10,302 nt of DNA from a virus. Its lineage: Duplodnaviria > Heunggongvirae > Uroviricota > Caudoviricetes. Shown here one piece after another: positions 1-10,302 of this stretch. The stretch lies in the IMG/VR virus record IMGVR_UViG_2718217859_000003; one strand, given 5' to 3'. Both the position numbers and the translations under genes were made by a program. The notes under the pieces were generated by a model, which was given only the letters and a program-made list of their open reading frames with translations, was not told the origin of the DNA and ran no database searches. Position 1 is the stretch's first letter. Every line of letters begins with the position of its first letter.

Positions 1-372
1 TTACTTCCTGCGTTTATCCCGCTTTGTATGTCCGTGCTGAATGCCCCGCAGTGGATCTTCTTTTTTCAGGTCGATCCCCATGTCCGTTAGTGTTTTTGTG
101 GCGGCGGTTCTTATGGCACAAATCAGGTCTCTTTCCGGTTCCCGGGTTATGGTTGCCTTCCGGATACATGCCGTTCGTCGTTCCGTTACATACTGACGCG
201 CTTCATCACTTGCCGCCTGTTTCAGTAACTCACCCCAGCGATTAGCCGCCCGTCGCCATAAACCTTTCGCTTCCAGTTCTTCCGCTTTGTCATCATGCAC
301 CATAAGCATAATCCCATTGATACCTGTTAAATCTGAATGGTTGGTTTCCGTTCTTTTGATAATTTCCCTCAT
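1..372 (-). CDS. PerC-family transcriptional activator-like protein (start codon ambiguous: ATG at 372, 309 or 303)
   Basis: Complete ORF with stop at 1-3. The motif EELEAKGLWRRAANRW resembles the conserved core I recall for PerC/Pch-type activators. No clear SD upstream of the ATG at 372, so the true start may be an internal Met. Confidence 0.5.
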   Translation of the reverse strand: MREIIKRTETNHSDLTGINGIMLMVHDDKAEELEAKGLWRRAANRWGELLKQAASDEARQYVTERRTACIRKATITREPERDLICAIRTAATKTLTDMGIDLKKEDPLRGIQHGHTKRDKRRK

Positions 373-384
373 AGCTTATTGTAT

Positions 385-396
385 GACAGTACTGTC
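385..396. promoter_or_regulatory. Perfect 12-bp palindrome GACAGTACTGTC in the divergent region between the PerC-like gene and the 416-715 gene
   Basis: Read directly from sequence; the position suits an operator overlapping divergent promoters. Confidence 0.35.
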
Positions 397-415
397 CCAC
401 AATAAGGAATCACAC

Positions 416-715
416 ATGAGAATGACCAGGCACAAAAAACAGATTCTTGAACTTTACAAACCTGAGTATCGCGATTGGGTGCGGGTGGAGGCCGGAGATC
501 CGCCTTTTGATGTTCGTGGTGTGACAGTGCTGCTCTATGGTTCCGAATATCAGCGATATCACATAGAGGCAACCCGACGAACGTTAAACGCTATGGTAAA
601 TGATGGGATCCTGTACCGCGTGAAAGTGCGCGAACCCCGCTTTGATGTGCGTATCGGTAGCGATGGCGCTCACTGTACGGTAATCCGGTACGGGCTGGGT
701 AAATCAGATGATTAA
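416..715 (+). CDS. Hypothetical protein, 99 aa, possible winged-helix DNA-binding fold
   Basis: ATG at 416 is preceded by AAGGAA (404-409). The longer track ORF from 287 would overlap the PerC-like gene and lacks an RBS. The fold guess rests on the segment ATRRTLNAMVNDGILYRVKV and is weak. Confidence 0.5.
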   Translation: MRMTRHKKQILELYKPEYRDWVRVEAGDPPFDVRGVTVLLYGSEYQRYHIEATRRTLNAMVNDGILYRVKVREPRFDVRIGSDGAHCTVIRYGLGKSDD

Positions 716-720
716 ATCAC

Positions 721-817
721 CAGAATGTAAATTTACATTCTGCCAGCCACCAGCTACAGAACGCAAATTTGCACTTTGCTGAAATATTAACGGGTTAGGC
801 CAGAGTGCAAATTTGCA
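721..817. promoter_or_regulatory. Triad of related AAATTT-centred palindromes between convergent genes
   Basis: CAGAATGTAAATTTACATTCTG at 721-742 is a 22-bp perfect palindrome; GCAAATTTGC at 763-772; TGCAAATTTGCA at 806-817. Sites 2 and 3 with their flanks (763-775 and 804-816) are also inverted copies of each other. Confidence 0.5.
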
Positions 818-838
818 TTATGCTTTAACTTCAGCAAG

Positions 839-1120
839 TTACCGCCGTAACCGCTCCGGCTTCTTCCACTGGTACGTTATTTTGGCTTTTTCCCTGTACG
901 TCTGTATCCGGCGACGGTAGGCCAGCATTTCAAGAACGCGGATCCGTATGTCGCGCATATCCGCATCATTAAGCTGGATACCATCACGGTGCATCACCTC
1001 AGCAACCACACGAACATAATTTTCTGCGGTCACGCTGTCCGGCTGCGTGGCCTGTTCGTCAGCCTGCTGGTTGATTCCGGCGACGCGGCGGATTAATCGC
1101 AGTAGTTCGGTTTCTGTCAT
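839..1120 (-). CDS. Hypothetical protein, 93 aa
   Basis: ATG at 1120 with a GGGGG SD-like run upstream on the minus strand. It sits immediately downstream of repeat copy A. No recognisable motif. Confidence 0.5.
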   Translation of the reverse strand: MTETELLRLIRRVAGINQQADEQATQPDSVTAENYVRVVAEVMHRDGIQLNDADMRDIRIRVLEMLAYRRRIQTYREKAKITYQWKKPERLRR

Positions 1121-1158
1121 TGTGCCCCCATCGCGCTGGTTAAGAAAACAAGCTCAGA

Positions 1159-1375
1159 TTTTTTGTAAAGAATCTGTCACGCTAAAAGATGTCGAACAAA
1201 AAACAACCTTCTCCATCATCTTTTTTGCATCGATTACATTAAAAACAACAGGTTACATACATGATGATGATGACGATAAAATCACAAAAATGCGCTTTTT
1301 TCCGCGCCCGCCCGCCCCGTGTTCATACCCACCCCACCAGGAGGACCCGCAAAAAAGGCGGCTGGTGCCGCCTTG
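1159..1375. repeat. Direct repeat copy A (~220 bp, diverged) flanking the capsid module
   Basis: Aligns block-wise with 3698-3914: TTTTTGTAAA, GAACAAAAAACAACCT, an (ATG)n versus (GTG)n triplet tract, ATAAAATCA-AAAAATGCGC, the identical 20-mer CCGCGCCCGCCCGCCCCGTG (1302-1321), then CCCACC, CCAGGAG and an A-run plus hairpin. Confidence 0.8.
1351..1372 (-). terminator. Rho-independent terminator downstream of the protease-capsid gene
   Basis: On the minus strand: GGCGGC-ACCA-GCCGCC followed by TTTTTT, 7 nt after the stop of the 1379-3268 gene. Confidence 0.65.
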
Positions 1376-1378
1376 TTG

Positions 1379-3268
1379 TCATAGTGAATCGGTACCGCCT
1401 GATTTGACCATACCGCGATAATCCAGAGCGGCCACACCAGCATCAATACGGACTTTCCAGGCCACACCGTCAACGATGAAACCTTCCTGCTGTTCAAGGT
1501 AAGGCTCGTCATTGCCATCAAGATAAGCCACCTCGATTGTGTCCGTTCCCTGTGCGGAAAGCATGTACCATTGTTTTTCGCTGATATCATCAAGGCGGGG
1601 ATCGACGATAATATCCAGTAGTTTGTGATACGGGTTAAAGATCCCGCTGTTTTTATCTGCCCCGAAAGGTGCGGTTGAGTTAATCATCTGCAACGCGCGA
1701 TCTTCCAGTGCTGCCGGAACTAAAAGGAATTTAGGCGCAATATTCAGCACTTCGCCATTTTTGTCCTTCTGTGTGCGCATCAGGTGACGTGCTGCACTAA
1801 GTCCCGGTGTTGTCAGTCCTGCTTCAATCAGGTTGCTGTGTTTTTTGTCAAACAGCGCTATTCCATCAGAAAGTTTTACGTTGCCTGTAAGCACCAGATT
1901 AACCAGATTTCCCACCGTTCTTGATGCTGCACGGCCCATAGCCATTGGCACCGTTGATAACTGATCAAGGTCATCATTGATTATCGCCTGGCGGGTAATG
2001 CTGAAAATATTCCCGTAAGTAGCCAGCGCGATGGGTTCACCGCGATCGCTGGTGGTGATGTATTTATATTCTGCCCCTTCCGGCACTTTGTTTAACGTAG
2101 AGAAACCATTCAGACCAACGCGGCGGGCTTCACGAAAGTTTGAAAGGGAACCTTTTTTCGTCCACTGGCGGAATGTTTCGCCGCTGTGCTCCCAGCCTGC
2201 AAGCACTGATTTTTCAGCACCACCAGCAAGGATATCGGTAAAATCGCTGCTGCTGTGGTTGAATGCCGCGTTTACTATCTGCGAGCGTGTTCCGTAGCTG
2301 CCCGTGCTTATACCACGATGGGTTAATGATGCCTGTGCCATATCGAAAAGGCTCATCATGGCGTAAGGATTACCGCGTTCGGCCCGTTCGTGACCAAGAC
2401 GCGCATTAAGCCCCTGGCGCATTGCATCGCCGGTTATGTTGCCGTTATCCGTGTACGCGTAGTAAAGATTTGCGGGGGTGGTTTTATTTGTTGGCGTTGA
2501 TTCTTTACCCATAGCGAGTAAAAGGCGTTCGCGTGCATTCTCAACGCTACATTCTGAATCAGCAAGACAACTTATAGCCAGGTCGTTATATCTTCCGTTG
2601 AACGTGCCAAACAATTCACGGATGCCGTTAAGTCGTTCCTGTTCGCCACTGCCAGTTTTCTGGCTGATCATGCTTTTAATTTTTTCCGGCATATTTGAAA
2701 AATCTCCGATTCGTTTTGATTCAATTCGGGCCATTGCTGTAATCGCGGGTATAACCTCATCTGCGAAGCCGTTAGCCTTACACTCATTGCCATCCATCCA
2801 GGTTTCCGCCTCCATCATGGCGGTGATTTCCTGTTTGCTCCTGCCCGTTCTTCCGGCGTAGGTTTCAGCCATCGTGTCGCCCAGCTTGTCCATCAGGTCA
2901 GCAAAGCGGCGAACGTCGCCCGACACTCCGGCAGTAACACCACGGGGGGCATGTATCATCATCATTGCGTTTTCAGGCATAACGATGTGATCGCCACACA
3001 TGGCAATAAACGAGGCCATAGAAGCCGCCATGCCTTCAATGTGTACAATTTTCTTTGCCGGATGATTTTTCAGGGCGTTATAGATAGCCAGCCCTTCAAA
3101 GATGTCGCCACCAGGTGAATGGATGCGAAGATGGATTTCAGACGCATTACCACACGCGTTGATCTCGTCAGTAAGTGCCGATGCTTTTACACCGTACCCG
3201 CCGATCTCGTCATAAATGCGCACATAGACAACATCTGCCATAGCCTTAATGGAAAACCATGTTTTCAT
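1379..3268 (-). CDS. Prohead protease (ClpP-like serine protease) fused to an HK97-fold major capsid protein, single 629-aa polypeptide
   Basis: Strong SD (AGGAG, 8 nt upstream of the ATG at 3268). N-terminal third carries ClpP-type motifs: IHSPGGDIFEGLAIYNAL, GMAASMASF (Ser) and MMMIHAP (His). The C-terminal segment FSITRQAIINDDLDQLS resembles the HK97 gp5 stretch ASRQVMDDAPMLQS as I recall it. Confidence 0.8.
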   Translation of the reverse strand: MKTWFSIKAMADVVYVRIYDEIGGYGVKASALTDEINACGNASEIHLRIHSPGGDIFEGLAIYNALKNHPAKKIVHIEGMAASMASFIAMCGDHIVMPENAMMMIHAPRGVTAGVSGDVRRFADLMDKLGDTMAETYAGRTGRSKQEITAMMEAETWMDGNECKANGFADEVIPAITAMARIESKRIGDFSNMPEKIKSMISQKTGSGEQERLNGIRELFGTFNGRYNDLAISCLADSECSVENARERLLLAMGKESTPTNKTTPANLYYAYTDNGNITGDAMRQGLNARLGHERAERGNPYAMMSLFDMAQASLTHRGISTGSYGTRSQIVNAAFNHSSSDFTDILAGGAEKSVLAGWEHSGETFRQWTKKGSLSNFREARRVGLNGFSTLNKVPEGAEYKYITTSDRGEPIALATYGNIFSITRQAIINDDLDQLSTVPMAMGRAASRTVGNLVNLVLTGNVKLSDGIALFDKKHSNLIEAGLTTPGLSAARHLMRTQKDKNGEVLNIAPKFLLVPAALEDRALQMINSTAPFGADKNSGIFNPYHKLLDIIVDPRLDDISEKQWYMLSAQGTDTIEVAYLDGNDEPYLEQQEGFIVDGVAWKVRIDAGVAALDYRGMVKSGGTDSL

Positions 3269-3459
3269 AGCCAGGCTCCTAACGTTGCCCTGTACCAGTA
3301 TTCAACCGCGCTGCGTGTGATTTGTCCTTTCGTGGGTACCGGCATACCCGGGTGATTGTCTTTGATGAACTGCTGATAGCGTTCGATCTTCTCCATAGTT
3401 CCGGCGTCTATGTGTACCGTGGCACTTTTATCCGGCTTTCTGGTGTTGTTCTCTGGCAT
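3265..3459 (-). CDS. Hypothetical small protein (64 aa from ATG at 3459; 75 aa if ATG at 3492), translationally coupled to the protease-capsid gene
   Basis: GGAGG SD 8 nt upstream of the ATG at 3459. Its stop overlaps the capsid start as ATGA at 3265-3268. Confidence 0.5.
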   Translation of the reverse strand: MPENNTRKPDKSATVHIDAGTMEKIERYQQFIKDNHPGMPVPTKGQITRSAVEYWYRATLGAWL

Positions 3460-3541
3460 AAATCCGCCTCCGTTTTGATTAACGGGCATCATTATTGATC
3501 GATAAAAGTAATAGATAAATCATTTTCTACCTGAAAATTAG

Positions 3542-3547
3542 ATTATA
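3542..3547 (-). promoter_or_regulatory. Candidate -10 element (TATAAT on minus strand) for the capsid operon, no good -35
   Basis: Perfect TATAAT on the minus strand in the AT-rich region upstream of the small gene. The missing -35 would fit an activator-dependent promoter. Speculative. Confidence 0.25.
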
Positions 3548-3654
3548 TTTTTTCTGATTATTCTCAGAGAGGCAAAGCCATTGACGCATTTTTGCTATTG
3601 AAGCAATATTAAGACTCGTCATCCTGGCGATAAAAACTCCTTTGTCGTGTAAAA

Positions 3655-3691
3655 GCGCCTCCGGTAACAGCAATCGAGGGCGCTTTTTTTT
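3655..3691 (+). terminator. Rho-independent terminator-like hairpin on the plus strand
   Basis: GCGCCTCCG, an 11-nt loop, then CGAGGGCGC (one mismatch, one GU pair) followed by T8. No plus-strand gene lies upstream, so it may end a small RNA or act bidirectionally. Confidence 0.45.
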
Positions 3692-3697
3692 GCGCCT

Positions 3698-3914
3698 GTT
3701 TTTTTGTAAATGTTTTCGGGAACGCTCCAGTGATGAACAAAAAACAACCTGATTCGACACTAAAAATTTTTATTCCTCAATATATCAATAACTTATAGTG
3801 GTGGTGATGGTGCCATAAAAATCAAAAAATGCGCCTTTTTCCGCGCCCGCCCGCCCCGTGGACAGGCCCACCAAGCCAGGAGTACCTACAAAAAAGCCGG
3901 ATTGCTCCGGCTGT
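3698..3914. repeat. Direct repeat copy B (~220 bp, diverged) flanking the capsid module
   Basis: Same conserved blocks as copy A in the same order and orientation; identical 20-mer CCGCGCCCGCCCGCCCCGTG at 3841-3860. Confidence 0.8.
3890..3911 (-). terminator. Rho-independent terminator downstream of the 3931-4170 gene
   Basis: On the minus strand: GCCGGA-GCAA-TCCGGC followed by TTTTTT. It is positionally homologous to the hairpin in copy A but has a different stem sequence. Confidence 0.65.
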
Positions 3915-3930
3915 GTGCTCACTTCTTCGG

Positions 3931-4170
3931 TTATTCTCCAGCGCTTTTAACGTTGATGGTTGTAACCTGTTCCGCTTCGGCAATCTCCCGCTCTGTCAGC
4001 GTGGCAAAGTTTGCCGCCGTCGTGGTCATGAATGCGCTTATCAGTTCAGGATGTGCTTTCGCGTATCCTTCTCCCGCGTTGCGGTCGATGATTTTTATCG
4101 CCACCCTCAGCCAGTGTTCTGTCAAATCAAGGGCGTGAGATTGTGGTTTTTTTGCGTGCTTCGTTGTCAC
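3931..4170 (-). CDS. Hypothetical protein, 79 aa, GTG start
   Basis: GTG start with GAGGT SD about 7 nt upstream; lies between the iteron cluster and terminator B. No recognisable motif. Confidence 0.5.
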   Translation of the reverse strand: MTTKHAKKPQSHALDLTEHWLRVAIKIIDRNAGEGYAKAHPELISAFMTTTAANFATLTEREIAEAEQVTTINVKSAGE

Positions 4171-4214
4171 AGGCTTTACCTCACAGCAATAAAATAAAAT
4201 TTTTGCATTTTAAC

Positions 4215-4434
4215 CCTTCACCTGTTCACTTTTTGCGATTTTCCCTTTTTATTCATGATGTTAAGTGGTGAACAGTTTCACAAAAACTATTCACCAACTG
4301 TTCACCCTTAAAGCTCAATAAACAATCAAAAAGGTGAACAGTGAATAGTTTGGTGAACAGTTCATAAATAACTGCCCACCCTGTAATATACTGATATAAA
4401 AGACATTTATGACATGGTGAACAGTGGTGAACAG
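4215..4434. repeat. Iteron cluster: putative replication origin (P4 ori/crr-like) bound by the adjacent primase-helicase
   Basis: Six exact copies of the octamer TGTTCACC / GGTGAACA, as GGTGAACAG at 4267, 4333, 4352, 4416 and 4426 and inverted CTGTTCACC at 4298-4306. There is also an 8/9 copy at 4222-4229 and TTCACC half-sites. An AT-rich tract at 4361-4415 separates the tandem pair from the rest. Confidence 0.8.
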
Positions 4435-4447
4435 TTATTCCATAAGT

Positions 4448-6253
4448 TTAATTTTTGCTATCGTCATTAGTGACCGATACACATGATGGCATCCAGTCTT
4501 CTGATTCCTCCTTCAGTGTCACGTTTGAACGCAAACCGTGCTTCGTTTTCCGTTTCATATACTCCCTGCCATATTCCGCCATTGCCCCCGGAATATCTTT
4601 ACCGAAGCGCGTCAGTGTTACAGGCTTACCGAATCCGTGTGCCCTCATATATGCCAGATAGGCGTGATAAAGATACCTGCGCGGACTGAACGGAATAATT
4701 TCGGCATTACCCACTAACAGACCATCACACATTACCGACGACATGAGATAGCCGCAGAAGTCCACCAGCGAATCGCCCTCGCGTTTTATCACCAGAGCTT
4801 CTTCTGATTTCTGCTGCTCATACAGCAAGCGTTTAGCTTCGTCCTGGTCAGAAAAACGAGTAAGCAGGTGGCGAATCACAACCGCCAGCTCTCCTTCTAT
4901 TTTTTCTGCCAGCATGGAGTCGCGTTCGTTTTCCGGTACAACCTCCGAAAAATTGAATATCACCCGACGACGTGAGATCCCCCCGCTGCGGTCACTGAAT
5001 GACATGGCGTTATTGTTCACCGCCAGCACGACCGCCTGAATGCGTGTTGAGTAGGGGGCTTTATGCTTCGGGTCGATTGCCACCTTGTCACCGCCTGTAA
5101 TGGCCTTAATTCCTGCGCCATCACCAGCGTAGCGGGTCATATCCGGCATGATAATCAGCGAAAAGCCAACCACTAACGCGCGTTCCCTGGCATCTTCCAG
5201 CGCCTTCATGCTTGCCGATACCGTGTTGGCCTTACCCGCCAGCATGGTGCAAATCTCCGCCATTACGCTTTTACCGCTCCCACCCGGCCCCGTTACCTCA
5301 AGAAATAACTGCCAGTCGTATCGGTTCGCCAGCACCATGAATAACGCCGCCAGTACGCGATCCGCTTTACGGTCATTCTCTGCCACCGAACGGCGCAACC
5401 ATTTCCAGAAATTCGGCGCATGCGTTGCCAGCGTTTCCCCCTCTGCTGGCGGGCTGAACGGTAATTCACTGGCAATTAACAGCCAGTCGTTTTTGTCATG
5501 CTCCCGAAAATCGCCTGTCCGGGTATCAAAAACACCGTTACTGAATCCAATCAGGTTACGGGCGGTATTCCCCATTACGGGCAAACTTAACTTCATGGTA
5601 TCGACCGCCGATTTGATGGCGTTCTGCGAATAACTAATCTCCGCATCAATAAAAATCTGCGCCATAGCCCGCTGTAACTCTTTATCCTGTACCGGCTCCC
5701 ATACAACGCCGTTGTAGTGGTGAACGGTGTCAGAGTCCGCATTGATTGCCAGTTCACCGCCATAACGTGCCAGGAGAACTTCGCCGCGCTGGCTTGCTCC
5801 CATCTGGTTAAGAGCCAGTGGTGCGGCGTTGTCTTCTGTTTTTTTCTTAACAGGAAGCTGAATAACCAGACCATCAGAAAGATTCTGGCGCTCACGGGCC
5901 AGATATTCGCGCCAGTTTTCCACCTCCTGACCGTGCATTCCCTCAGGGTAATATCTCGCATCCCGTACACCTGCCGCCGCCAGCTTTTGCCCGATGGCAT
6001 TAATATTTGACGGCTTGATGTGGCCTGCCTTGTACAGCCGGACATAATAGCGACCATCGTCGATAATTTTCAGGTCTGCCAGTTCATCAAGCTGGCTGTC
6101 TCCCAGCCATACAGGCGGGACGTTATCGCCAGCAAGTCGCCCGTCCTGTTCCTGCCATTGTTTCGCGTGCGCCCAGGCATCACTACCCGCAAAAATAATG
6201 ACTTCGGTCATTTTGTCGTGCGGCTGTTTTTTTAAGTTTGGTGCCAGTTTCAT
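4448..6253 (-). CDS. Replicative primase-helicase, P4 alpha-like (phage/plasmid primase with P-loop NTPase and C-terminal DNA-binding region)
   Basis: 601-aa ORF with SD-like AGGGG upstream. Walker A motif VTGPGGSGKSV in the middle; the N-terminal region fits a primase domain. Its position directly upstream of the cognate iterons matches P4 alpha and PICI pri-rep genes. Confidence 0.85.
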   Translation of the reverse strand: MKLAPNLKKQPHDKMTEVIIFAGSDAWAHAKQWQEQDGRLAGDNVPPVWLGDSQLDELADLKIIDDGRYYVRLYKAGHIKPSNINAIGQKLAAAGVRDARYYPEGMHGQEVENWREYLARERQNLSDGLVIQLPVKKKTEDNAAPLALNQMGASQRGEVLLARYGGELAINADSDTVHHYNGVVWEPVQDKELQRAMAQIFIDAEISYSQNAIKSAVDTMKLSLPVMGNTARNLIGFSNGVFDTRTGDFREHDKNDWLLIASELPFSPPAEGETLATHAPNFWKWLRRSVAENDRKADRVLAALFMVLANRYDWQLFLEVTGPGGSGKSVMAEICTMLAGKANTVSASMKALEDARERALVVGFSLIIMPDMTRYAGDGAGIKAITGGDKVAIDPKHKAPYSTRIQAVVLAVNNNAMSFSDRSGGISRRRVIFNFSEVVPENERDSMLAEKIEGELAVVIRHLLTRFSDQDEAKRLLYEQQKSEEALVIKREGDSLVDFCGYLMSSVMCDGLLVGNAEIIPFSPRRYLYHAYLAYMRAHGFGKPVTLTRFGKDIPGAMAEYGREYMKRKTKHGLRSNVTLKEESEDWMPSCVSVTNDDSKN

Positions 6254-6549
6254 TTTTTACCCCTGAATCCGTTAATCATGGTTTTCAGCTTCTGGATGTT
6301 TGCCCGTGCCCTGGCGTTGCTGGTGGGCACGTTATGCGGCGCGGTCTGTACCAGAGAAAAATCACGCCGGAACTGATAAACAGGCATCACGCAATCATAT
6401 TCGTAACCTTCACGGCGGTAAGTTACGCACCGTCCCGCCACGCCCTTAATCATTACCGTGCCGCCGTACTGGTCGCGGTAAATATCACCGCGCGTAATTT
6501 TAGGGTGAGTGTTGCCACTGGCAGTTAAGCTAGAATATTTAAGTTTCAT
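6250..6549 (-). CDS. Hypothetical protein, 99 aa, translationally coupled to the primase-helicase
   Basis: Its stop and the primase start overlap as ATGA at 6250-6253. Part of the leftward operon. Confidence 0.55.
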   Translation of the reverse strand: MKLKYSSLTASGNTHPKITRGDIYRDQYGGTVMIKGVAGRCVTYRREGYEYDCVMPVYQFRRDFSLVQTAPHNVPTSNARARANIQKLKTMINGFRGKK

Positions 6550-6555
6550 TATTTT

Positions 6556-6789
6556 TTATTCTCCGGTGTGCTGTTCTTTATATCTGTCGTGCAATTGGTC
6601 TATTTCTTGTAGCTCCATTATTACAGGCTCAAGAAGCGTTATTAATGATGTAATAATCCGCGTTTTTTTTGCATTACGTTCATTATCGCCAAAGGATTCA
6701 AGGCACATCCGCAATATTTCCATCATGTTTTCACTGTGAGAAAGTGCAAGTGATGCGCGGTCTATTGTTTCAAGATAAATATCACGCAT
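6556..6789 (-). CDS. Hypothetical protein, 77 aa
   Basis: ATG at 6789 with GGACGGGG SD-like sequence 7 nt upstream; 6-nt gap to the next gene. Confidence 0.5.
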   Translation of the reverse strand: MRDIYLETIDRASLALSHSENMMEILRMCLESFGDNERNAKKTRIITSLITLLEPVIMELQEIDQLHDRYKEQHTGE

Positions 6790-6813
6790 ATTAATCCCCG
6801 TCCGTTGTTTTTC

Positions 6814-7242
6814 TTAAAACAGCTTCGTCACGAAATCAGCATAGTTAGCGGCAATATCAAGAATATTTAGCCCTGTATCTCTGTGCTCATCAGTGCAAAG
6901 AAAGAAAAAAGCCACCCGCATAATTTCAGATATTGACGAAAGCGCATCAGCCGCATCATCAGGAACGCCGGAAAATTCCTGTTTCAGGGCATTAAAACGA
7001 TCATCACGCATAACCCCCCCATTTTCACAATCAGCAATCAGGATGGCTTTAGCCTCATTCAGTGCCATATCAGCGGTAAGCTGTGCGTAGGCCAGCGAAT
7101 GGGGGATTATTGCCCCTGTATATTCCGGCTCTCTGGTAATGTGTTTTTCTGCGGTTGCTGCCGTGCATGAAATATCAATCAGCGCATCCATCAGCGTTTT
7201 GATGGCTTCGGCGGCTGCGTCCGGACGGGGGTTATTGCACAT
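6814..7242 (-). CDS. Hypothetical protein, 142 aa
   Basis: ATG at 7242 with a strong AGGAGG SD 6 nt upstream; overlaps the end of the upstream 68-aa ORF by 11 nt. Confidence 0.6.
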   Translation of the reverse strand: MCNNPRPDAAAEAIKTLMDALIDISCTAATAEKHITREPEYTGAIIPHSLAYAQLTADMALNEAKAILIADCENGGVMRDDRFNALKQEFSGVPDDAADALSSISEIMRVAFFFLCTDEHRDTGLNILDIAANYADFVTKLF

Positions 7243-7438
7243 GGCGCACCTCCTGACGAATACGGGCGGCGAATACCATCACGCAGCCAGCCGGGGATTG
7301 CTGGCGGGCTTCCTGTTCGCTGGTGGCCTCGATGGTAATCACGCGCGGTTGTGCCGTGCTCAGGGCGATAAAACGCCAGATGTATTTATTCAGGTTGTGC
7401 GAATCCCGCCCTTGCGGGTGTGTGGTATGATTTCTCAT
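7232..7438 (-). CDS. Hypothetical protein, 68 aa, first gene of the leftward replication operon
   Basis: This is the C-terminal part of the 367-aa track ORF, starting at its first plausible ATG (7438), which has a GAGG SD. The rest of that long ORF crosses the control region and is rejected. Confidence 0.45.
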   Translation of the reverse strand: MRNHTTHPQGRDSHNLNKYIWRFIALSTAQPRVITIEATSEQEARQQSPAGCVMVFAARIRQEVRHVQ

Positions 7439-7522
7439 AGCTGCCTCGATACTCTTTCTATCGTTGGTGGTTAGACGCCCTGCATGTGTGCCACCACTGC
7501 GGGGCGTTGCGTTTTTTGATGC

Positions 7523-7579
7523 ACACGTGTTAAGGTGTACACCTACAAAGCAAAAACATAACGCCATAGGTGTACACAT
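7523..7579. promoter_or_regulatory. Divergent control region with palindromic operators
   Basis: ACACGTGT at 7523-7530; perfect 12-bp palindrome AGGTGTACACCT at 7533-7544; near-copy AGGTGTACACAT at 7568-7579 overlapping the SD and start of the RHH gene. Confidence 0.55.
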
Positions 7580-7772
7580 GTCAACAGTTATTAAGCGCGA
7601 TAAAAAACAAAAAGGCACAGGAAAGACCCCACCGTTCCATATGCGTATAGTTCCTGAATTGAAGGAGCAGTTTGATAACGAAGCCAGTAACGATGGAGTA
7701 AGTCTTGCCAACTGGCTTAAAGAGTTGGGGCGCGCCGAACTAAAGCGACGCGGCATTGAACCTAAAGGCTGA
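7578..7772 (+). CDS. Ribbon-helix-helix (Arc/CopG-like) DNA-binding protein, 64 aa
   Basis: ATG at 7578 with an AGGTG SD. The segment FHMRIVPELKEQFDNEAS...SLANWLKELGRAEL fits a strand-helix-helix pattern. The track's longer version starts at a TTG inside the control region and is unlikely. Confidence 0.55.
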   Translation: MSTVIKRDKKQKGTGKTPPFHMRIVPELKEQFDNEASNDGVSLANWLKELGRAELKRRGIEPKG

Positions 7773-7775
7773 TGT

Positions 7776-7895
7776 ATGACCGATAACAAACTTTCTCTAA
7801 CAGAGAATAAACCATCAGGCTTCTTACCAAGAAAAATCCTTGATGAGATCAAACGCCGCCAGCGTAAAAAATCCAAAGGAGCAGACACGGAATAG
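7776..7895 (+). CDS. Micro-ORF, 39 aa, basic C-terminus (not in the ORF track)
   Basis: Translated by hand as MTDNKLSLTENKPSGFLPRKILDEIKRRQRKKSKGADTE. The ATG is 3 nt after the RHH stop, with a weak AAGG SD. Confidence 0.3.
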   Translation: MTDNKLSLTENKPSGFLPRKILDEIKRRQRKKSKGADTE

Positions 7896-7898
7896 CTT

Positions 7899-8063
7899 AT
7901 GCAACAAATACCATACTGGCTTGGCTCTCTGTTTGTATTTGCATTTCTCATGAAATATTGCATTAGCAATGAACTTGTCGGTAATGAAAGTGCATGCGCG
8001 AGCGCTGAAAAAAATATTCCACTTCTCGTATATGAAAACGAAAGCCCTGTGAACCGCAATTGA
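7899..8063 (+). CDS. Micro-ORF, 54 aa, with hydrophobic N-terminal segment (not in the ORF track)
   Basis: Translated by hand as MQQIPYWLGSLFVFAFLMKYCISNELVGNESACASAEKNIPLLVYENESPVNRN. The ATG is 3 nt after the 39-aa stop; the region is AT-rich. Confidence 0.3.
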   Translation: MQQIPYWLGSLFVFAFLMKYCISNELVGNESACASAEKNIPLLVYENESPVNRN

Positions 8064-8159
8064 GCGAAATTTAATGAATTCACTCTTTGCCCACCAGCCG
8101 CAAATGTGGCATTGTTGGCGATGCTCATGCGTTGGGGATAACGTGTAGCTTGTGTCGAA

Positions 8160-8188
8160 GGGCCATCGTGACAGGTGGCCTTTTCTTT
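8160..8188 (+). terminator. Candidate rho-independent terminator for the rightward micro-operon
   Basis: GGGCCA, a 10-nt loop, then TGGCCT (one GU pair), followed by TTTTCTTT. Confidence 0.4.
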
Positions 8189-8226
8189 ACCTGTTATCTG
8201 GCAATTGTGGCGCTTCGTCACACGGT

Positions 8227-8235
8227 TGATATAAT
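8227..8235 (+). promoter_or_regulatory. Candidate extended -10 promoter (TGaTATAAT)
   Basis: Perfect TATAAT at 8230-8235 with TG at 8227-8228; a weak -35-like TTGTGG at 8205-8210. Oriented toward the 3' end of alpA. Confidence 0.3.
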
Positions 8236-8284
8236 TCCCCTGCACTGATCCATTTTTTTCGCAGCAGGTTAATTGTTCGCAAGG

Positions 8285-8309
8285 GCGCTCCGGCAACGGG
8301 GCGCTTTTT
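8285..8309 (+). terminator. Rho-independent terminator with GNRA tetraloop
   Basis: GCGCTCCG-GCAA-CGGGGCGC (8-bp stem including one GU pair) followed by TTTTT. Strand-specific: there is no U-run on the minus strand. Confidence 0.6.
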
Positions 8310-8339
8310 GTTATGTTCATCACGTTACGCCTCACACCA

Positions 8340-8546
8340 TTACGCAGCCGTTCCGCGCGCTTCTTCCTCGCGCTCTTTCAGCCAGGCCAGCACTTCATCT
8401 TCATACCAGCCAACACGACGCAGACCGATTTTGAAGCCTTTCGGAAATTTTCCGGCGTTGATCATGTCCTGTAGCGAACTGTCTGCCTTGATGCGCAGAA
8501 TATTTTTTACTTCCTGACGGGTAAGAATTTTTCTGATTGTTTCCAC
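8340..8546 (-). CDS. alpA: AlpA-family phage transcriptional regulator / excisionase-like HTH protein
   Basis: 68 aa, GTG start with AGGT SD. The pattern FPKGFKIGLRRVGWYEDEVLAWL matches the AlpA core I recall. Small regulator near the integrase, as in P4-like elements and Gram-negative PICIs. Confidence 0.8.
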   Translation of the reverse strand: METIRKILTRQEVKNILRIKADSSLQDMINAGKFPKGFKIGLRRVGWYEDEVLAWLKEREEEARGTAA

Positions 8547-8615
8547 TATGTTTTACCTCGTTAATCCGGCGTATTCCGGTGATAAATACGGTAAAACAGG
8601 GCAGGGCGGGAAAAA

Positions 8616-8651
8616 CAGTACCCACCGTTTTAAAACGGTACCCACTGTTTT
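8616..8651. promoter_or_regulatory. Two tandem 20-bp repeats AAAACRGTACCCACYGTTTT upstream of alpA
   Basis: cAGTACCCACcGTTTT at 8616-8631 and cGGTACCCACtGTTTT at 8636-8651, 20 bp centre to centre, with the palindrome CCGTTTTAAAACGG (8625-8638) bridging them. Confidence 0.5.
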
Positions 8652-8681
8652 TTATCTTATTGATTACGCTTTTCTTTCTGC

Positions 8682-8710
8682 AAAAAAATAGCGACCGCAA
8701 GGGGCCGCTA
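8682..8710 (-). terminator. Candidate rho-independent terminator after the 80-aa gene
   Basis: On the minus strand: TAGCGGCC, loop, GGTCGCTA (one mismatch) followed by T7, a few nt after the stop at 8717. Confidence 0.45.
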
Positions 8711-8716
8711 TTGTGA

Positions 8717-8959
8717 TTACCGTTTCCACTTCTTAGGTCGCCCACCGCATTTAAGGCTGGTGGGCCTCAGCACCTTGTCGATGCTTTCAGCCAGATTTTT
8801 CGATGCGCCACGCGAGCGCAAAAAACTGACTACCTCGTGTTTTGTGGGGGCAGTTGATTTGTCTTCCGGATCGTACGTTGACCAGAATTCACGATTTGCC
8901 ATTAAGGCCAACTGAAGGCCTTCACCATAGGCAGGGGATACCTTTTCATTGAAAAACAC
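8717..8959 (-). CDS. Hypothetical small basic protein, 80 aa, GTG start, between integrase and alpA
   Basis: Perfect AAGGAG SD 8 nt upstream of the GTG at 8959. The basic C-terminus (GGRPKKWKR) suggests nucleic-acid binding. Its own terminator implies co-transcription with int. Confidence 0.5.
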   Translation of the reverse strand: MFFNEKVSPAYGEGLQLALMANREFWSTYDPEDKSTAPTKHEVVSFLRSRGASKNLAESIDKVLRPTSLKCGGRPKKWKR

Positions 8960-9060
8960 TCGGATAACTCCTTGAATTTCAAGAGTCGGGTCTCTCTGTA
9001 TATGGTGATTATACGATGGTTTAGCATGGTTTGCATCGCTTTTACTGGTTTTTTGTACAG

Positions 9061-10302
9061 TTACACGGCACGGATACCCCTTTTACCACTGGCTATGGTC
9101 ACTCCGGTTGCTGCGGCCTCTACAAATTCCCCCCACCAGCGCATAAGCACCACGCGCTTTTCCAGGTAGTTACTTCGGTTATATGCTCGCCTTACCTCGT
9201 TCGTGTCCACGTGTGCGAGTGCGGCCTCGATTACGTCCGGCTCGAATCCTTCCTCGTTCGCTGCTGTGCTGAATATGGCGCGTAATCCATGAGACACCAG
9301 CACGCCAGCGAATCCCATTCGCCGCAATGCTGCGTTGGCGGTCTGGCTGTTCATAGGCTGCCGTGGGTCTTTCAGGCTAGGGAAAACGTGCTCGCGGTGG
9401 TGGCTGATTGGCTTCATGGCCTCCAGTACCGCCATAGCCTGACTACAAAGCGGGATAACGTGATCACGCCGCATCTTCATGCGTCCGGCGGGGATCGTCC
9501 ATTGTTGCGCGTCCATGTCGATTTCTTCCCAGCGTGCTGACGATGCTTCAACCGGACGGGTTACAGTCAGTAGCTGCCATTCAATCAGTAATCTGGTCTG
9601 CCGTTCTGTTGCTGATACGGATAAAGCCTGCATAAGCTCCGGCAACTGTTCGGGGCGGATTGTTGGCATATGTTTTTTTACAGGGGAGGGGAACGCCTTA
9701 CGCACATTCATAGCCGGATTGGCATCAATCAGCCCACTGTTGGCGGCGTAATCCATTACCTCATTAACGCGCTGTAAAACCCGCTTGAGTGTTTCCAGGT
9801 TGCCGCGCTCCTTGATGGGTGTAAGCACCTCAACGAACCTTCGGGCAGTGAGGGTATCTATTGGCGTGTTGCCGATGAACGGGAATACATATTTATCCAG
9901 CGAACGCCAGATGTCTTTAATCGTGTTGGGGGCCAGATTCTGGCTGATTTTCACCTGGTACCATGCCGCCGCCACATTTTCGAACGTGTTCCCTTGTCTT
10001 CGGGCCTCTGCCTCTCGTTTTTTCTTCTCATGGTCCTGCGGGTCAGTTCCGGCACTGATTAACGTCCTGTACTCGCTACGGCGTTTTCTGGCATCAGCCA
10101 GGGAAACATCTTCAAGAGATCCAAAACTCAGCAATATTCTTTTTTTGTCCGATGGTCGGTAGTAGGAAAATCGCCAGAGTTTTGATCCGGACGGTTTTAC
10201 CAGGAGAAAAAGCCCACCGCCGTCCTGTAGGGTGTACTCCTTTTGCGCTGGTCTGGCTGCTTTGATCTGCACTGTGGTTAATGGGGGTGTTTTTCTCGCC
10301 AT
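9061..10302 (-). CDS. int: Tyrosine site-specific integrase, P4-type (phage integrase family)
   Basis: 413 aa; the start codon sits exactly at the window edge. N-terminal arm-binding-like region (GGGLFLLVKPSGSKLWRFSYY), C-terminal catalytic signatures HGLRAIFST and a tyrosine in RRAYNRSNYLEKR. Confidence 0.93.
   Translation of the reverse strand: MARKTPPLTTVQIKAARPAQKEYTLQDGGGLFLLVKPSGSKLWRFSYYRPSDKKRILLSFGSLEDVSLADARKRRSEYRTLISAGTDPQDHEKKKREAEARRQGNTFENVAAAWYQVKISQNLAPNTIKDIWRSLDKYVFPFIGNTPIDTLTARRFVEVLTPIKERGNLETLKRVLQRVNEVMDYAANSGLIDANPAMNVRKAFPSPVKKHMPTIRPEQLPELMQALSVSATERQTRLLIEWQLLTVTRPVEASSARWEEIDMDAQQWTIPAGRMKMRRDHVIPLCSQAMAVLEAMKPISHHREHVFPSLKDPRQPMNSQTANAALRRMGFAGVLVSHGLRAIFSTAANEEGFEPDVIEAALAHVDTNEVRRAYNRSNYLEKRVVLMRWWGEFVEAAATGVTIASGKRGIRAV

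What the first reader, a model, noticed from the sequence alone, without database searches (positions are those of the whole stretch)
4215..4434. Exact P4 type-I iterons immediately downstream of the primase-helicase
Six exact copies of TGTTCACC / GGTGAACA, plus partial copies and an AT-rich tract, lie within 220 bp just past the primase stop. As I recall, this octamer is the P4 type-I iteron bound by the C-terminal domain of alpha at ori and crr. That makes this the likely origin and ties the 601-aa protein to P4-alpha-type origin recognition despite other differences from P4.
Basis: partly seen in the sequence, partly recalled or inferred. Interest (0 to 1): 0.5.

Follow-up and report, generated by a model that had tools for sequence, protein, structure and literature searches.

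The report
Replication origin of a phage-satellite island
The repeats are real and are very probably the replication origin of a small phage-parasitic island in Escherichia coli, recognised by its own initiator protein in the way satellite phage P4 recognises its origin; this kind of origin has already been described, so the finding is sound but fairly ordinary.

Summary
Confirmed. Window 4215-4433 holds six exact GGTGAACA/TGTTCACC octamers (0.35 expected in the whole window) plus five degenerate copies at fixed positions. The P4 RefSeq record annotates this octamer as 'ori type 1 repeat'.

The adjacent 601-aa protein is 50% identical to P4 alpha over the helicase and the C-terminal origin-binding winged helix (PDB 1KA8, E 1.6e-25). 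It lacks alpha's Zn-ribbon/TOPRIM primase; its N-terminus has only a TOPRIM-like fold.

The window is almost a whole ~10-kb EcCI-type phage-inducible chromosomal island (PICI) at tRNA-Pro/yejM. In this published family the origin lies directly 3' of rep. The rep-ori of EcCICFT073 (Rep 48% identical, same array layout, different iteron) was shown to replicate.

Across ~30 relatives the layout stays constant while the octamer falls into six classes. The classes track the wing hairpin of the winged helix, and 7 of 7 predictions on new loci were correct.

The array is a P4 ori1-like half joined to a P4 crr-like unit.

Verdict: this is the island's origin, recognised in the P4-alpha manner. It is a new member of a known kind, of modest interest.

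The parts
4448..6253 (-). rep gene (601 aa). It encodes an SF3 helicase-initiator related to P4 alpha and to EcCI Pri-Rep.
   Evidence: ORF. Pfam hits D5_N 158-287, DUF5906 321-429 and Pox_D5 492-587. 50% identity to P4 alpha residues 313-771. 48% identity over the full length to EcCICFT073 Pri-Rep.
5861..6253 (-). N-terminal module of Rep (residues 1-131). It has a TOPRIM-like alpha/beta fold but no recognisable primase motifs and no Zn ribbon.
4487..4777 (-). C-terminal winged-helix origin-binding domain (residues 493-589).
   Evidence: phmmer hit to PDB 1KA8 (P4 alpha origin-binding domain), E 1.6e-25. Pfam Pox_D5.
4523..4555 (-). Codons of the wing beta-hairpin (residues 567-577, KRKTKHGLRSN). 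This is the segment that tracks the iteron class.
   Evidence: Alignments by class. Secondary structure of the AF2 model shows strands at 567-570 and 573-576; the model is low confidence. 7 of 7 prospective predictions were correct.
4333..4433 (.). Rep-proximal half of the array, with the layout of P4 ori1. Site offsets are 0, 10, 53(inverted), 74, 86, 93, against 0, 10, 53(inverted), 75, 86, 96 in P4 ori1.
   Evidence: sequences.
4215..4306 (.). Rep-distal half of the array, with the layout of one P4 crr 120-bp unit. Site offsets are 0, 11, 32, 76, 84, against 0, 14, 32, 75, 84 in crr.
   Evidence: alignment; sequences.
4426..4433 (+). Iteron S1, GGTGAACA, exact.
4416..4423 (+). Iteron S2, GGTGAACA, exact, 10 bp from S1.
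4373..4380 (-). Iteron S3, degenerate (TGCCCACC on the + strand). It is an exact TGTTCACC in three E. coli relatives.
4352..4359 (+). Iteron S4, GGTGAACA, exact.
4340..4347 (+). Iteron S5, degenerate (AGTGAATA).
4333..4340 (+). Iteron S6, GGTGAACA, exact.
4299..4306 (-). Iteron S7, TGTTCACC on the + strand, exact, inverted.
4288..4295 (-). Iteron S8, TATTCACC, 1 mismatch.
4267..4274 (+). Iteron S9, GGTGAACA, exact.
4223..4230 (-). Iteron S10, TGTTCACT, 1 mismatch. It is exact in E. coli relatives.
4215..4222 (-). Iteron S11, CCTTCACC, 2 mismatches. It forms the terminal pair with S10.
4381..4415 (.). 35-bp AT-rich spacer (77% AT) inside the ori1-like half. Candidate melting region.
   Evidence: The spacer length is the same in P4 ori1 and in relatives.
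4307..4332 (.). 26-bp AT-rich centre (77% AT) between the two halves. Candidate melting region.
4231..4266 (.). 36-bp T-rich spacer (72% AT) inside the crr-like half.
4185..4214 (.). A/T run (83% AT; the most AT-rich 25-mer in 4100-4500 starts at 4188). It follows the terminal iteron pair and is conserved in relatives and after the P4 crr units.
4136..7051 (.). Replication cassette (ori + rep + DUF4222 gene + small ORFs). It is exchanged as one block between islands that are otherwise 99% identical.
   Evidence: blastn of the window against L002: 1-4135 at 99.7%, 7052-10302 at 98.7%, and only 75-77% patches in the centre.

Best explanation
Window 4215-4433 is the replication origin of an EcCI-type phage-inducible chromosomal island (PICI). 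The window covers almost the whole ~10-kb island.

Proposed mechanism. The island's Rep (4448-6253, minus strand) is a self-loading SF3 helicase-initiator of the P4 alpha / PICI Pri-Rep lineage. Its C-terminal winged-helix domain binds the 8-bp core GGTGAACA (extended GGTGAACAGT). Sequence discrimination comes mainly from the wing beta-hairpin (residues 567-577). Eleven sites in a fixed arrangement form two halves:
- a Rep-proximal half built like P4 ori1: ++, a 35-bp AT spacer, -, then +++;
- a distal half built like one P4 crr unit: --, +, a 36-bp spacer, then --.
The bound protomers assemble hexamers on either side of AT-rich DNA, melt it and load themselves.

Priming is probably supplied by the host or the helper phage, because the Zn-ribbon/TOPRIM primase of P4 alpha is missing.

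Shown here: the repeats and their enrichment; the homologies; the conserved layout; the covariation; one array per island.

Inferred: binding, the site of melting, helicase loading and the source of primers.
For: Enrichment: 6 exact copies in 167 bp against 0.35 expected per window.

Iteron identity: the octamer equals the annotated P4 type 1 repeat.

Rep homology: Rep is 50% identical to alpha 313-771, and residues 493-589 match the solved P4 origin-binding domain 1KA8 at E 1.6e-25.

Conserved position and layout: 23 genome loci plus L002, L003 and L027 were examined. Nearly all carry an array within ~250 bp 3' of the rep stop, with near-identical offsets 0+,10+,53-,74+,85+,93+,~126-,138-,148-,169+,213-,221-. 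The exceptions are the split-origin Erwinia locus L026, L007 (a different layout) and L019 (a truncated array). The octamer differs by class: GGTGAACA, GGTAGACA, GGTAGATA, GGTGGAGA, GGCGGACA and GGTGGACA.

Covariation: within the main clade the recognition helix is nearly invariant while the wing is class-specific. Wing identity is 0.76 within classes and 0.39 between classes; body identity is 0.88 and 0.80. No permutation of 5000 reached the observed value. P4 alpha, only 50% identical overall, keeps the wing of the GGTGAACA class.

Prospective test: the iteron class was predicted from the wing for 7 new loci (Xenorhabdus, Thorsellia, Serratia, Pantoea and metagenomes). All 7 were correct, though one (L033) is a decayed remnant array.

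Selective constraint: among 9 arrays from different genera, iteron columns are more conserved than spacer columns (0.93 against 0.73).

One array per island: this holds in the window, in L002 and in the complete EcCICFT073.

Experimental precedent: EcCICFT073, whose rep-ori supports plasmid maintenance and loses it on ori deletion (PMC6092414), has the same gene order, a Rep 48% identical over its full length and the same array layout.

Cassette behaviour: ori and rep are exchanged together between otherwise 99%-identical islands.

Distribution: the array is present at 80% identity or more, next to a 'DNA primase family protein', in 593 of 5426 complete E. coli genomes.
Against: Nothing here is an experiment on this sequence. 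Binding, melting and initiation are all inferred.

The wing codons lie only ~90 bp from the array, so covariation could partly reflect co-inheritance of neighbouring DNA rather than selection for recognition.

This copy is slightly eroded. Two sites that are exact in its closest E. coli relatives are mutated here (4373-4380, TT to CC; 4230, C to T). Some relatives also carry one more 10-bp unit.

The AF2 model of the C-terminal domain is low confidence (pLDDT 58). The wing assignment therefore rests on homology to 1KA8 and on secondary structure only.

The source of primers is unknown.
Confidence: 0.85

Rival explanations
1. The array is only a crr-like cis-acting enhancer, as at the corresponding position in P4. 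Replication would then start at a separate origin elsewhere.
For: In P4 the region directly 3' of alpha is crr, not ori. The distal half of the array is colinear with a crr unit. A full-length alpha relative in Erwinia (L026) has separate clusters 2 kb upstream and 2.1 kb downstream of the gene.
Against: The Rep-proximal half has the exact ori1 site layout. No second cluster exists in the window, in L002 or in the complete EcCICFT073; only a single stray copy lies inside rep. In EcCICFT073 a fragment with rep plus this region sufficed for plasmid maintenance (PMC6092414).
Confidence: 0.05
2. The repeats are mainly operator, copy-control or incompatibility sites. Rep would bind them to regulate the downstream capsid operon or to 'handcuff' copies, rather than to initiate replication.
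For: Iterons in plasmid systems often serve both roles. The array sits between rep and the next operon on the same strand. No terminator follows rep.
Against: No promoter-like site was found on the minus strand in 3900-4600. The layout matches two experimentally defined replication elements, P4 ori1 and crr, and the tested EcCICFT073 ori. This role would be additional to the origin function rather than an alternative to it.
Confidence: 0.04
3. The array is a relic: it was an origin, but this particular copy no longer functions.
For: It has six exact sites against 8-9 in the closest E. coli relatives. There is a double substitution in the conserved inverted site at 4373-4380 and a 10-bp unit is missing. 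The best match in 5426 complete genomes is only 95.8% identical.
Against: The rep ORF is intact at 601 aa and overlaps the upstream gene by 4 bp. Other apparently intact relatives have as few as 3-5 exact sites. The tandem pair next to rep and the spacers are untouched.
Confidence: 0.06

Closest known systems
Satellite phage P4 replicon: alpha protein with ori (ori1) and crr, type 1 iterons TGTTCACC
   Same: The octamer is identical. The helicase and the C-terminal origin-binding winged helix are homologous (50% identity; 1KA8 at E 1.6e-25). The wing sequence is shared. The proximal half reproduces the ori1 site spacing (0,10,53,74,86,93 against 0,10,53,75,86,96) and the distal half reproduces a crr unit (0,11,32,76,84 against 0,14,32,75,84). 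Like crr, the array lies directly 3' of the initiator gene.
   Different: P4 keeps ori1 and two crr units about 4.5 kb apart; here one ori1-like unit and one crr-like unit are contiguous. Rep lacks alpha's Zn-ribbon and TOPRIM primase. No terminator lies between the gene and the array (P4 has t-alpha). The second site of the crr-like unit is inverted relative to P4. The element is not a P4-like satellite: no sid, psu, delta or epsilon is annotated, and it instead carries a ClpP-protease/capsid fusion and PerC.
Replication origins of Gram-negative PICIs (EcCI elements, e.g. EcCICFT073; Fillol-Salom et al. 2018, PMC6092414)
   Same: Island type and gene order are the same (int ... Icd-like, DUF4222, rep, ori... 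PerC, capsid genes). The origin is immediately 3' of rep, with sets of iterons around AT-rich DNA. Rep is 48% identical over its full length, including the N-terminal module. The array layout is the same. PICIs at the yejM site are listed in that paper.
   Different: The iteron class differs: EcCICFT073 uses GGTAGACA/GGTAGATA, with a different wing and a more divergent winged helix. Whether the GGTGAACA class is among the iterons drawn in that paper's Fig. 2a could not be checked, because figures are not held.
SaPI Rep / PriRep self-loading helicases and SaPI ori (Qiao et al. 2022, PMC9371898)
   Same: It uses the same design. An SF3 helicase-initiator with a C-terminal winged helix binds iterons placed immediately downstream of rep, on both sides of AT-rich DNA and in opposite orientations. 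The helicase core matches SaPI5 PriRep (7OLA, E 2.8e-10).
   Different: SaPI iterons are 5-6 nt and unrelated in sequence. Only the helicase core is detectably similar. SaPI PriRep5 carries a real primase domain, or a separate pri gene is present.
RFX1-type winged-helix DNA recognition
   Same: The literature aligns the P4 alpha origin-binding domain with RFX, in which DNA contacts are made by helix 3 and the wing (PMC2777425). From memory, in RFX1 the wing makes the major-groove contacts. That fits the wing-specific covariation found here.
   Different: No DNA complex of a P4-type domain is available. The role of the wing here is inferred from covariation only.

Membership tests
P4 alpha-type replicon | Clustered type 1 iterons TGTTCACC | tested here: met
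   6 exact and 5 degenerate copies in 4215-4433. The same octamer is annotated in P4 ori and crr.
P4 alpha-type replicon | Initiator with the alpha C-terminal winged-helix origin-binding domain | tested here: met
   1KA8 hit at E 1.6e-25 over residues 493-589. The wing KRKTKHGLRSN compares with P4 KRHTKQGIQTN.
P4 alpha-type replicon | SF3 helicase domain (D5_N + P-loop) homologous to alpha | tested here: met
   50% identity over 459 residues. The Pfam domains D5_N and DUF5906 are present in both.
P4 alpha-type replicon | N-terminal DnaG-type primase (Zn ribbon + TOPRIM) | tested here: not met
P4 alpha-type replicon | Bipartite origin: ori1 and crr kilobases apart | tested here: not met
   One contiguous 219-bp array, with no second cluster in the island.
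P4 alpha-type replicon | P4 satellite gene set (sid, psu, delta, epsilon, cI) | tested here: not met
   None appears in the Pfam/NCBIfam hits for the window ORFs or in the RefSeq annotation of the near-identical island. A capsid/protease fusion, PerC and an Icd-like gene are present instead.
P4 alpha-type replicon | Initiator binds the iterons and drives replication from them | not testable with these tools
   Needs EMSA or footprinting and a replication assay.
Gram-negative PICI (EcCI) origin | Origin immediately 3' of the replication initiator gene | tested here: met
   The first iteron is 14 bp from the rep stop. This is the published family feature.
Gram-negative PICI (EcCI) origin | Sets of iterons in opposite orientations around AT-rich DNA | tested here: met
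   Layout. Spacers are 72-83% AT against a window mean of 51%.
Gram-negative PICI (EcCI) origin | Island context: terminal integrase, unidirectional genes, specific att site, PICI accessory genes | tested here: met
   The integrase is at 9061-10302 and all main ORFs are on the minus strand. The near-identical island lies between yejO and tRNA-Pro/yejM and carries PerC. PICIs at the yejM site are listed in PMC6092414.
Gram-negative PICI (EcCI) origin | Rep homologous to an experimentally validated PICI Pri-Rep | tested here: met
   48% identity over 592 residues to EcCICFT073 Pri-Rep.
Gram-negative PICI (EcCI) origin | The rep-ori segment replicates autonomously, and the island is induced by a helper phage | not testable with these tools
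   Shown for EcCICFT073 only.
SaPI Rep/ori | Sequence-level membership of the SaPI Rep families, with 5-6-nt iterons | tested here: not met
   Only the helicase core matches 7OLA (E 2.8e-10). The iterons here are 8-11 nt. The resemblance is one of design, not membership.

The most novel reading that the evidence does not exclude
The alpha/Pri-Rep winged helix reads its iteron mainly through the wing hairpin. Natural wing variants form at least six orthogonal initiator-origin pairs, which let several satellites share one cell without cross-talk. One MAG carries two Reps that are nearly identical except for the wing, with GGTGAACA and GGTGGAGA arrays.

P4's puzzling split ori1 + crr would then be a pulled-apart version of the contiguous two-half origin seen here, so that crr is simply the second helicase-loading half.

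Because this island and P4 share iteron and wing, P4 alpha and this Rep may cross-activate each other's origins.
Probability: 0.4. Interest if true: 0.5.

Novelty: new member of a known kind. Interest (0 to 1): 0.35.

Why it matters
The result places the replication origin of a very common E. coli island on firm comparative ground: related arrays occur in 593 of 5426 complete genomes.

It corrects the 'primase' label on the initiator.

It gives three testable leads:
- A simple rule that predicts which iteron an alpha-type initiator recognises from about 11 residues of its wing. This could be used to design orthogonal replicons or to predict incompatibility among satellites.
- An explanation of P4 crr as the second half of a bipartite origin.
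- Possible cross-talk between P4 and PICIs that share the same iteron.

None of this changes the established picture of how PICI and P4 replicons work.

Tried and rejected
- A full-text search for the bare octamer returned only primer lists.
- The primary P4 papers (Lindqvist 1993, Ziegelin 1993) are not held. Alpha binding to the iterons therefore rests on the P4 record annotation, the 1KA8 entry, reference lists and my memory.
- DnaA boxes: none in or near the array.
- Promoter and terminator consensus scan of 3900-4600: nothing on the gene strand and no terminator after rep.
- Rfam: no RNA family anywhere in the window.
- The att sequence published for yejM-site PICIs is not inside the window. 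The window stops at the integrase start.
- Pfam and NCBIfam gave nothing for the Rep N-terminus. Only a predicted structure gave a lead.
- AF2 of the C-terminal domain was low confidence (pLDDT 58), so no fold search was run on it.
- The extra octamer at 5014 inside rep was considered as a P4 ori2 analogue and set aside as a probable chance match. It is a single copy, and 0.35 copies are expected per window.
- A cos/pac function for the array was considered and dropped. The layout matches replication elements, and the iteron class covaries with Rep rather than with packaging genes.

Full report
OBSERVATION

The octamer GGTGAACA/TGTTCACC occurs exactly six times between 4267 and 4433 and once more at 5014. 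Dinucleotide-preserving shuffles of the whole 10.3-kb window give 0.35 on average and never more than 2. An independent repeat finder recovers the same family and extends it to (T)GGTGAACAGT(T).

The stretch 4198-4447 is closed in all six frames. It is 65% AT against 51% for the window, with spacers of 72-83% AT.

Outside such arrays the octamer is rare. There are 29 copies in 262 kb of fetched loci, including the P4 and Erwinia origins, and none in 28 kb of E. coli chromosome around a sister island.

The rep stop codon is at 4448-4450, 14 bp from the first iteron.

WHAT THE ELEMENT IS

The window is nearly a complete ~10-kb island. A sister copy in E. coli MFDS1019527 lies between yejO and tRNA-Pro/yejM and runs from a PerC gene to an integrase.

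The window encodes the following:
- an integrase (9061-10302);
- an Icd-like segment;
- a DUF4222 protein;
- the 601-aa protein;
- a ClpP-protease/major-capsid fusion (1379-3268).

This is the gene order of the Gram-negative phage-inducible chromosomal islands (EcCI elements) of Fillol-Salom et al. 2018. That paper lists PICIs at the yejM site and states that the region immediately 3' of the initiator gene is the origin, with sets of iterons around AT-rich DNA.

Their experimentally tested element, EcCICFT073, has the same order, DUF4222-rep-intergenic array. Its Pri-Rep is 48% identical to the window protein over the full length.

THE INITIATOR

The 601-aa protein is 50% identical to P4 alpha over alpha residues 313-771, which cover D5_N, the SF3 helicase and the C-terminal domain. 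Residues 493-589 match the solved P4 alpha origin-binding domain 1KA8 at E 1.6e-25.

It is not a P4-type primase. Alpha hits Zn_Ribbon_Prim (30-66) and Toprim_3 (210-299), while the window protein hits neither. Its first 133 residues are unrelated in sequence to alpha.

I could not recognise the canonical acidic motifs in the sequence. I infer a degenerate TOPRIM remnant and probably no primase activity, but this was not tested.

THE IDENTITY OF THE REPEAT

The P4 RefSeq record annotates exactly this octamer as 'ori type 1 repeat' in ori (9310-9413) and in the two 120-bp crr units (4291-4590). Of the sixteen annotated type 1 repeats (six in ori, ten in crr), eleven are exact copies of the octamer. 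That alpha binds these repeats through its C-terminal domain is established P4 knowledge. I recall it from Ziegelin et al. 1993 and Yeo et al. 2002; the papers are not held, and the latter is cited.

In P4 the element directly 3' of alpha is crr, not ori.

ANATOMY

The following counts run from the first iteron after the rep stop, in gene orientation. A prime marks one mismatch and a double prime marks two.

- Window: 0+, 10+, 53-'', 74+, 86+'', 93+, then 127-, 138-', 159+, 203-', 211-''.
- P4 ori1: 0+, 10+, 53-, 75+, 86+, 96+.
- One P4 crr unit: 0-, 14+, 32+', 75-, 84-'.
- The window's distal sites re-zeroed to 127: 0, 11, 32, 76, 84.

The array is therefore an ori1-like half (4333-4433) joined to a crr-like unit (4215-4306). 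The 35-36-bp AT-rich spacers sit in the same places, and an A/T run follows the terminal pair as in crr.

COMPARATIVE EVIDENCE

A scan of one genome per species returned 23 loci encoding relatives. Together with L002, L003 (vB_KppS-Ant) and EcCICFT073, nearly all carry an array within ~250 bp of the rep stop with nearly the same offsets. The exceptions are the Erwinia locus L026 described below, L007 (a different layout) and L019 (a truncated array). The octamer falls into six classes: GGTGAACA, GGTAGACA, GGTAGATA, GGTGGAGA, GGCGGACA and GGTGGACA.

Among nine GGTGAACA arrays from different genera, iteron columns are more conserved than spacer columns (0.93 against 0.73).

Aligning the C-terminal domains by class gives three results:
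- Helix 3 is almost invariant in the main clade.
- The following hairpin is class-specific. Examples are KRKT-KHGLRSN for GGTGAACA, KR.KCTKGPDKGR.I.N for GGTAGACA and RKKST-KGNMRSN for GGTGGAGA.
- The excess association of class with wing over body is reached by 0 of 5000 label permutations.

P4 alpha, far more divergent elsewhere, keeps the GGTGAACA-class wing.

One metagenome-assembled genome carries two Reps with near-identical domains except for the wing, next to GGTGAACA and GGTGGAGA arrays (L019 and L025).

I then predicted the iteron class from the wing for seven further proteins found by a domain search. All seven matched (four GGTGAAYA, one GGTAGACA, two GGTGGAGA); one of the GGTGGAGA loci (L033) is a decayed remnant array.

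The AF2 model of the domain is low confidence. Its secondary structure nevertheless puts the class-specific residues on a beta-hairpin after helix 3. This agrees with the RFX-like winged helix described for 1KA8.

Caveat: the wing codons are only ~90 bp from the array, so linkage contributes to the covariation.

MODULARITY AND COPY NUMBER

Against the sister island, window 1-4135 is 99.7% identical and 7052-10302 is 98.7% identical. In contrast, 4136-7051 (array, rep, DUF4222 and small ORFs) is replaced by the EcCICFT073-type cassette with GGTAGACA iterons. Origin and initiator therefore travel together.

Each island has a single array, which argues against a separate origin elsewhere.

A full-length alpha relative in Erwinia has split clusters as P4 does. 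A full-length (frameshifted) alpha in Xenorhabdus has the contiguous array. The contiguous form is therefore not tied to loss of the primase.

STATE OF THIS COPY

Arrays at least 80% identical occur in 593 of 5426 complete E. coli genomes; the best match is 95.8% identical. Three of these arrays carry exact sites where the window has TGCCCACC (4373-4380) and TGTTCACT (4223-4230), and two of them have one more 10-bp unit. This copy is slightly eroded, but rep is intact.

MECHANISM AND RIVALS

The best-supported reading is an origin at which Rep's winged helix binds eleven phased sites, assembles on both sides of AT-rich DNA, melts it and loads itself. This is the mechanism described for SaPI Reps and P4 alpha. 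Primers would come from the host or the helper phage.

I give this 0.85. The rivals, a crr-like enhancer only, mainly regulatory sites and a dead relic, get 0.04-0.06 each, for the reasons listed under each.

No DnaA boxes, promoters, terminators or Rfam families were found in the region.

COMPARISON AND NOVELTY

The array works like P4 ori+crr and like PICI and SaPI origins. As a member, it fits the EcCI PICI origin family on every feature I could test. It fails two defining features of the P4 replicon (the primase domain and the split origin) and lacks the P4 gene set.

The homology of EcCI Pri-Rep to alpha and the position of the origin are already published. The following points may be new, though I cannot exclude that the paper's Fig. 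2a already shows this iteron:
- the exact identity of this class's iteron and wing with P4's;
- the ori1+crr composite layout;
- the wing-iteron rule.

Interest is 0.35.

Noticed in passing
window 4136-7051, compared with L002 13136-15785: The whole replication cassette (ori + rep + DUF4222 gene + small ORFs) is swapped between two islands that are 99.7% and 98.7% identical on either side. The left breakpoint falls about 80 bp beyond the last iteron, at the start of the next gene.
   Followed up: partly
window 5861-6253 (Rep residues 1-131): This N-terminal module is conserved at 46-94% identity. In other E. coli proteins it is joined, after a 'LPVKKK' linker, to quite different partners: an AAA_25 RepA-like helicase, part of an SSB OB-fold, and a 'VFWVTPKVDK' protein. 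Some of these may be recombination scars or partial gene calls. The fold is TOPRIM-like but the catalytic motifs are not evident.
   Followed up: partly
window 7534-7543 and 7569-7577: A perfect palindrome GGTGTACACC and a second GGTGTACAC lie 25 bp apart, in a region that is mechanically part of a 367-aa ORF. They could be operator sites of the nearby helix-turn-helix regulator (8340-8546).
   Followed up: no
window 7232-8335 (-): The only family hit of this 367-aa ORF (GTG start) is an Icd-like cell-division-inhibitor motif at residues 318-361. In the 98.7%-identical sister island the same stretch is annotated as a partial Icd pseudogene plus a + strand hypothetical gene. The long ORF may therefore not be a real gene.
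   Followed up: no
window 1262-1373 and 3802-3915: A direct repeat of about 110 bp (about 80% identical) brackets the capsid-gene segment. Read on the gene (minus) strand, it contains a GC-rich hairpin followed by a T run (terminator-like), then a G-rich tract and a second small hairpin.
   Followed up: partly
window 1379-3268 (-): A single 629-aa protein fuses a ClpP-like prohead protease to an HK97-type major capsid protein. No portal or large terminase was seen in the window, unlike the fuller head module of the related element vB_KppS-Ant (L003).
   Followed up: no
window 5014-5021: One extra exact TGTTCACC lies inside the helicase-coding part of rep. It is probably chance. From memory, P4 has a second origin (ori2) inside alpha, so I record it here.
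   Followed up: no
L019 and L025 (two contigs of MAG SMAGNO137); L028 (Xenorhabdus kozodoii): One genome carries two Reps that are almost identical in the winged helix except for the wing, with different iteron arrays. This suggests diversification for orthogonality. In Xenorhabdus, a full-length alpha (Zn ribbon + Toprim) that has been split by a frameshift is followed by the contiguous GGTGAACA array.
   Followed up: partly
L001 (P4) 4281-4289: A perfect DnaA-box consensus TTATCCACA abuts the outer edge of P4 crr. L002 and EcCICFT073 have TTATCCAC inside their arrays. The window has none.
   Followed up: no
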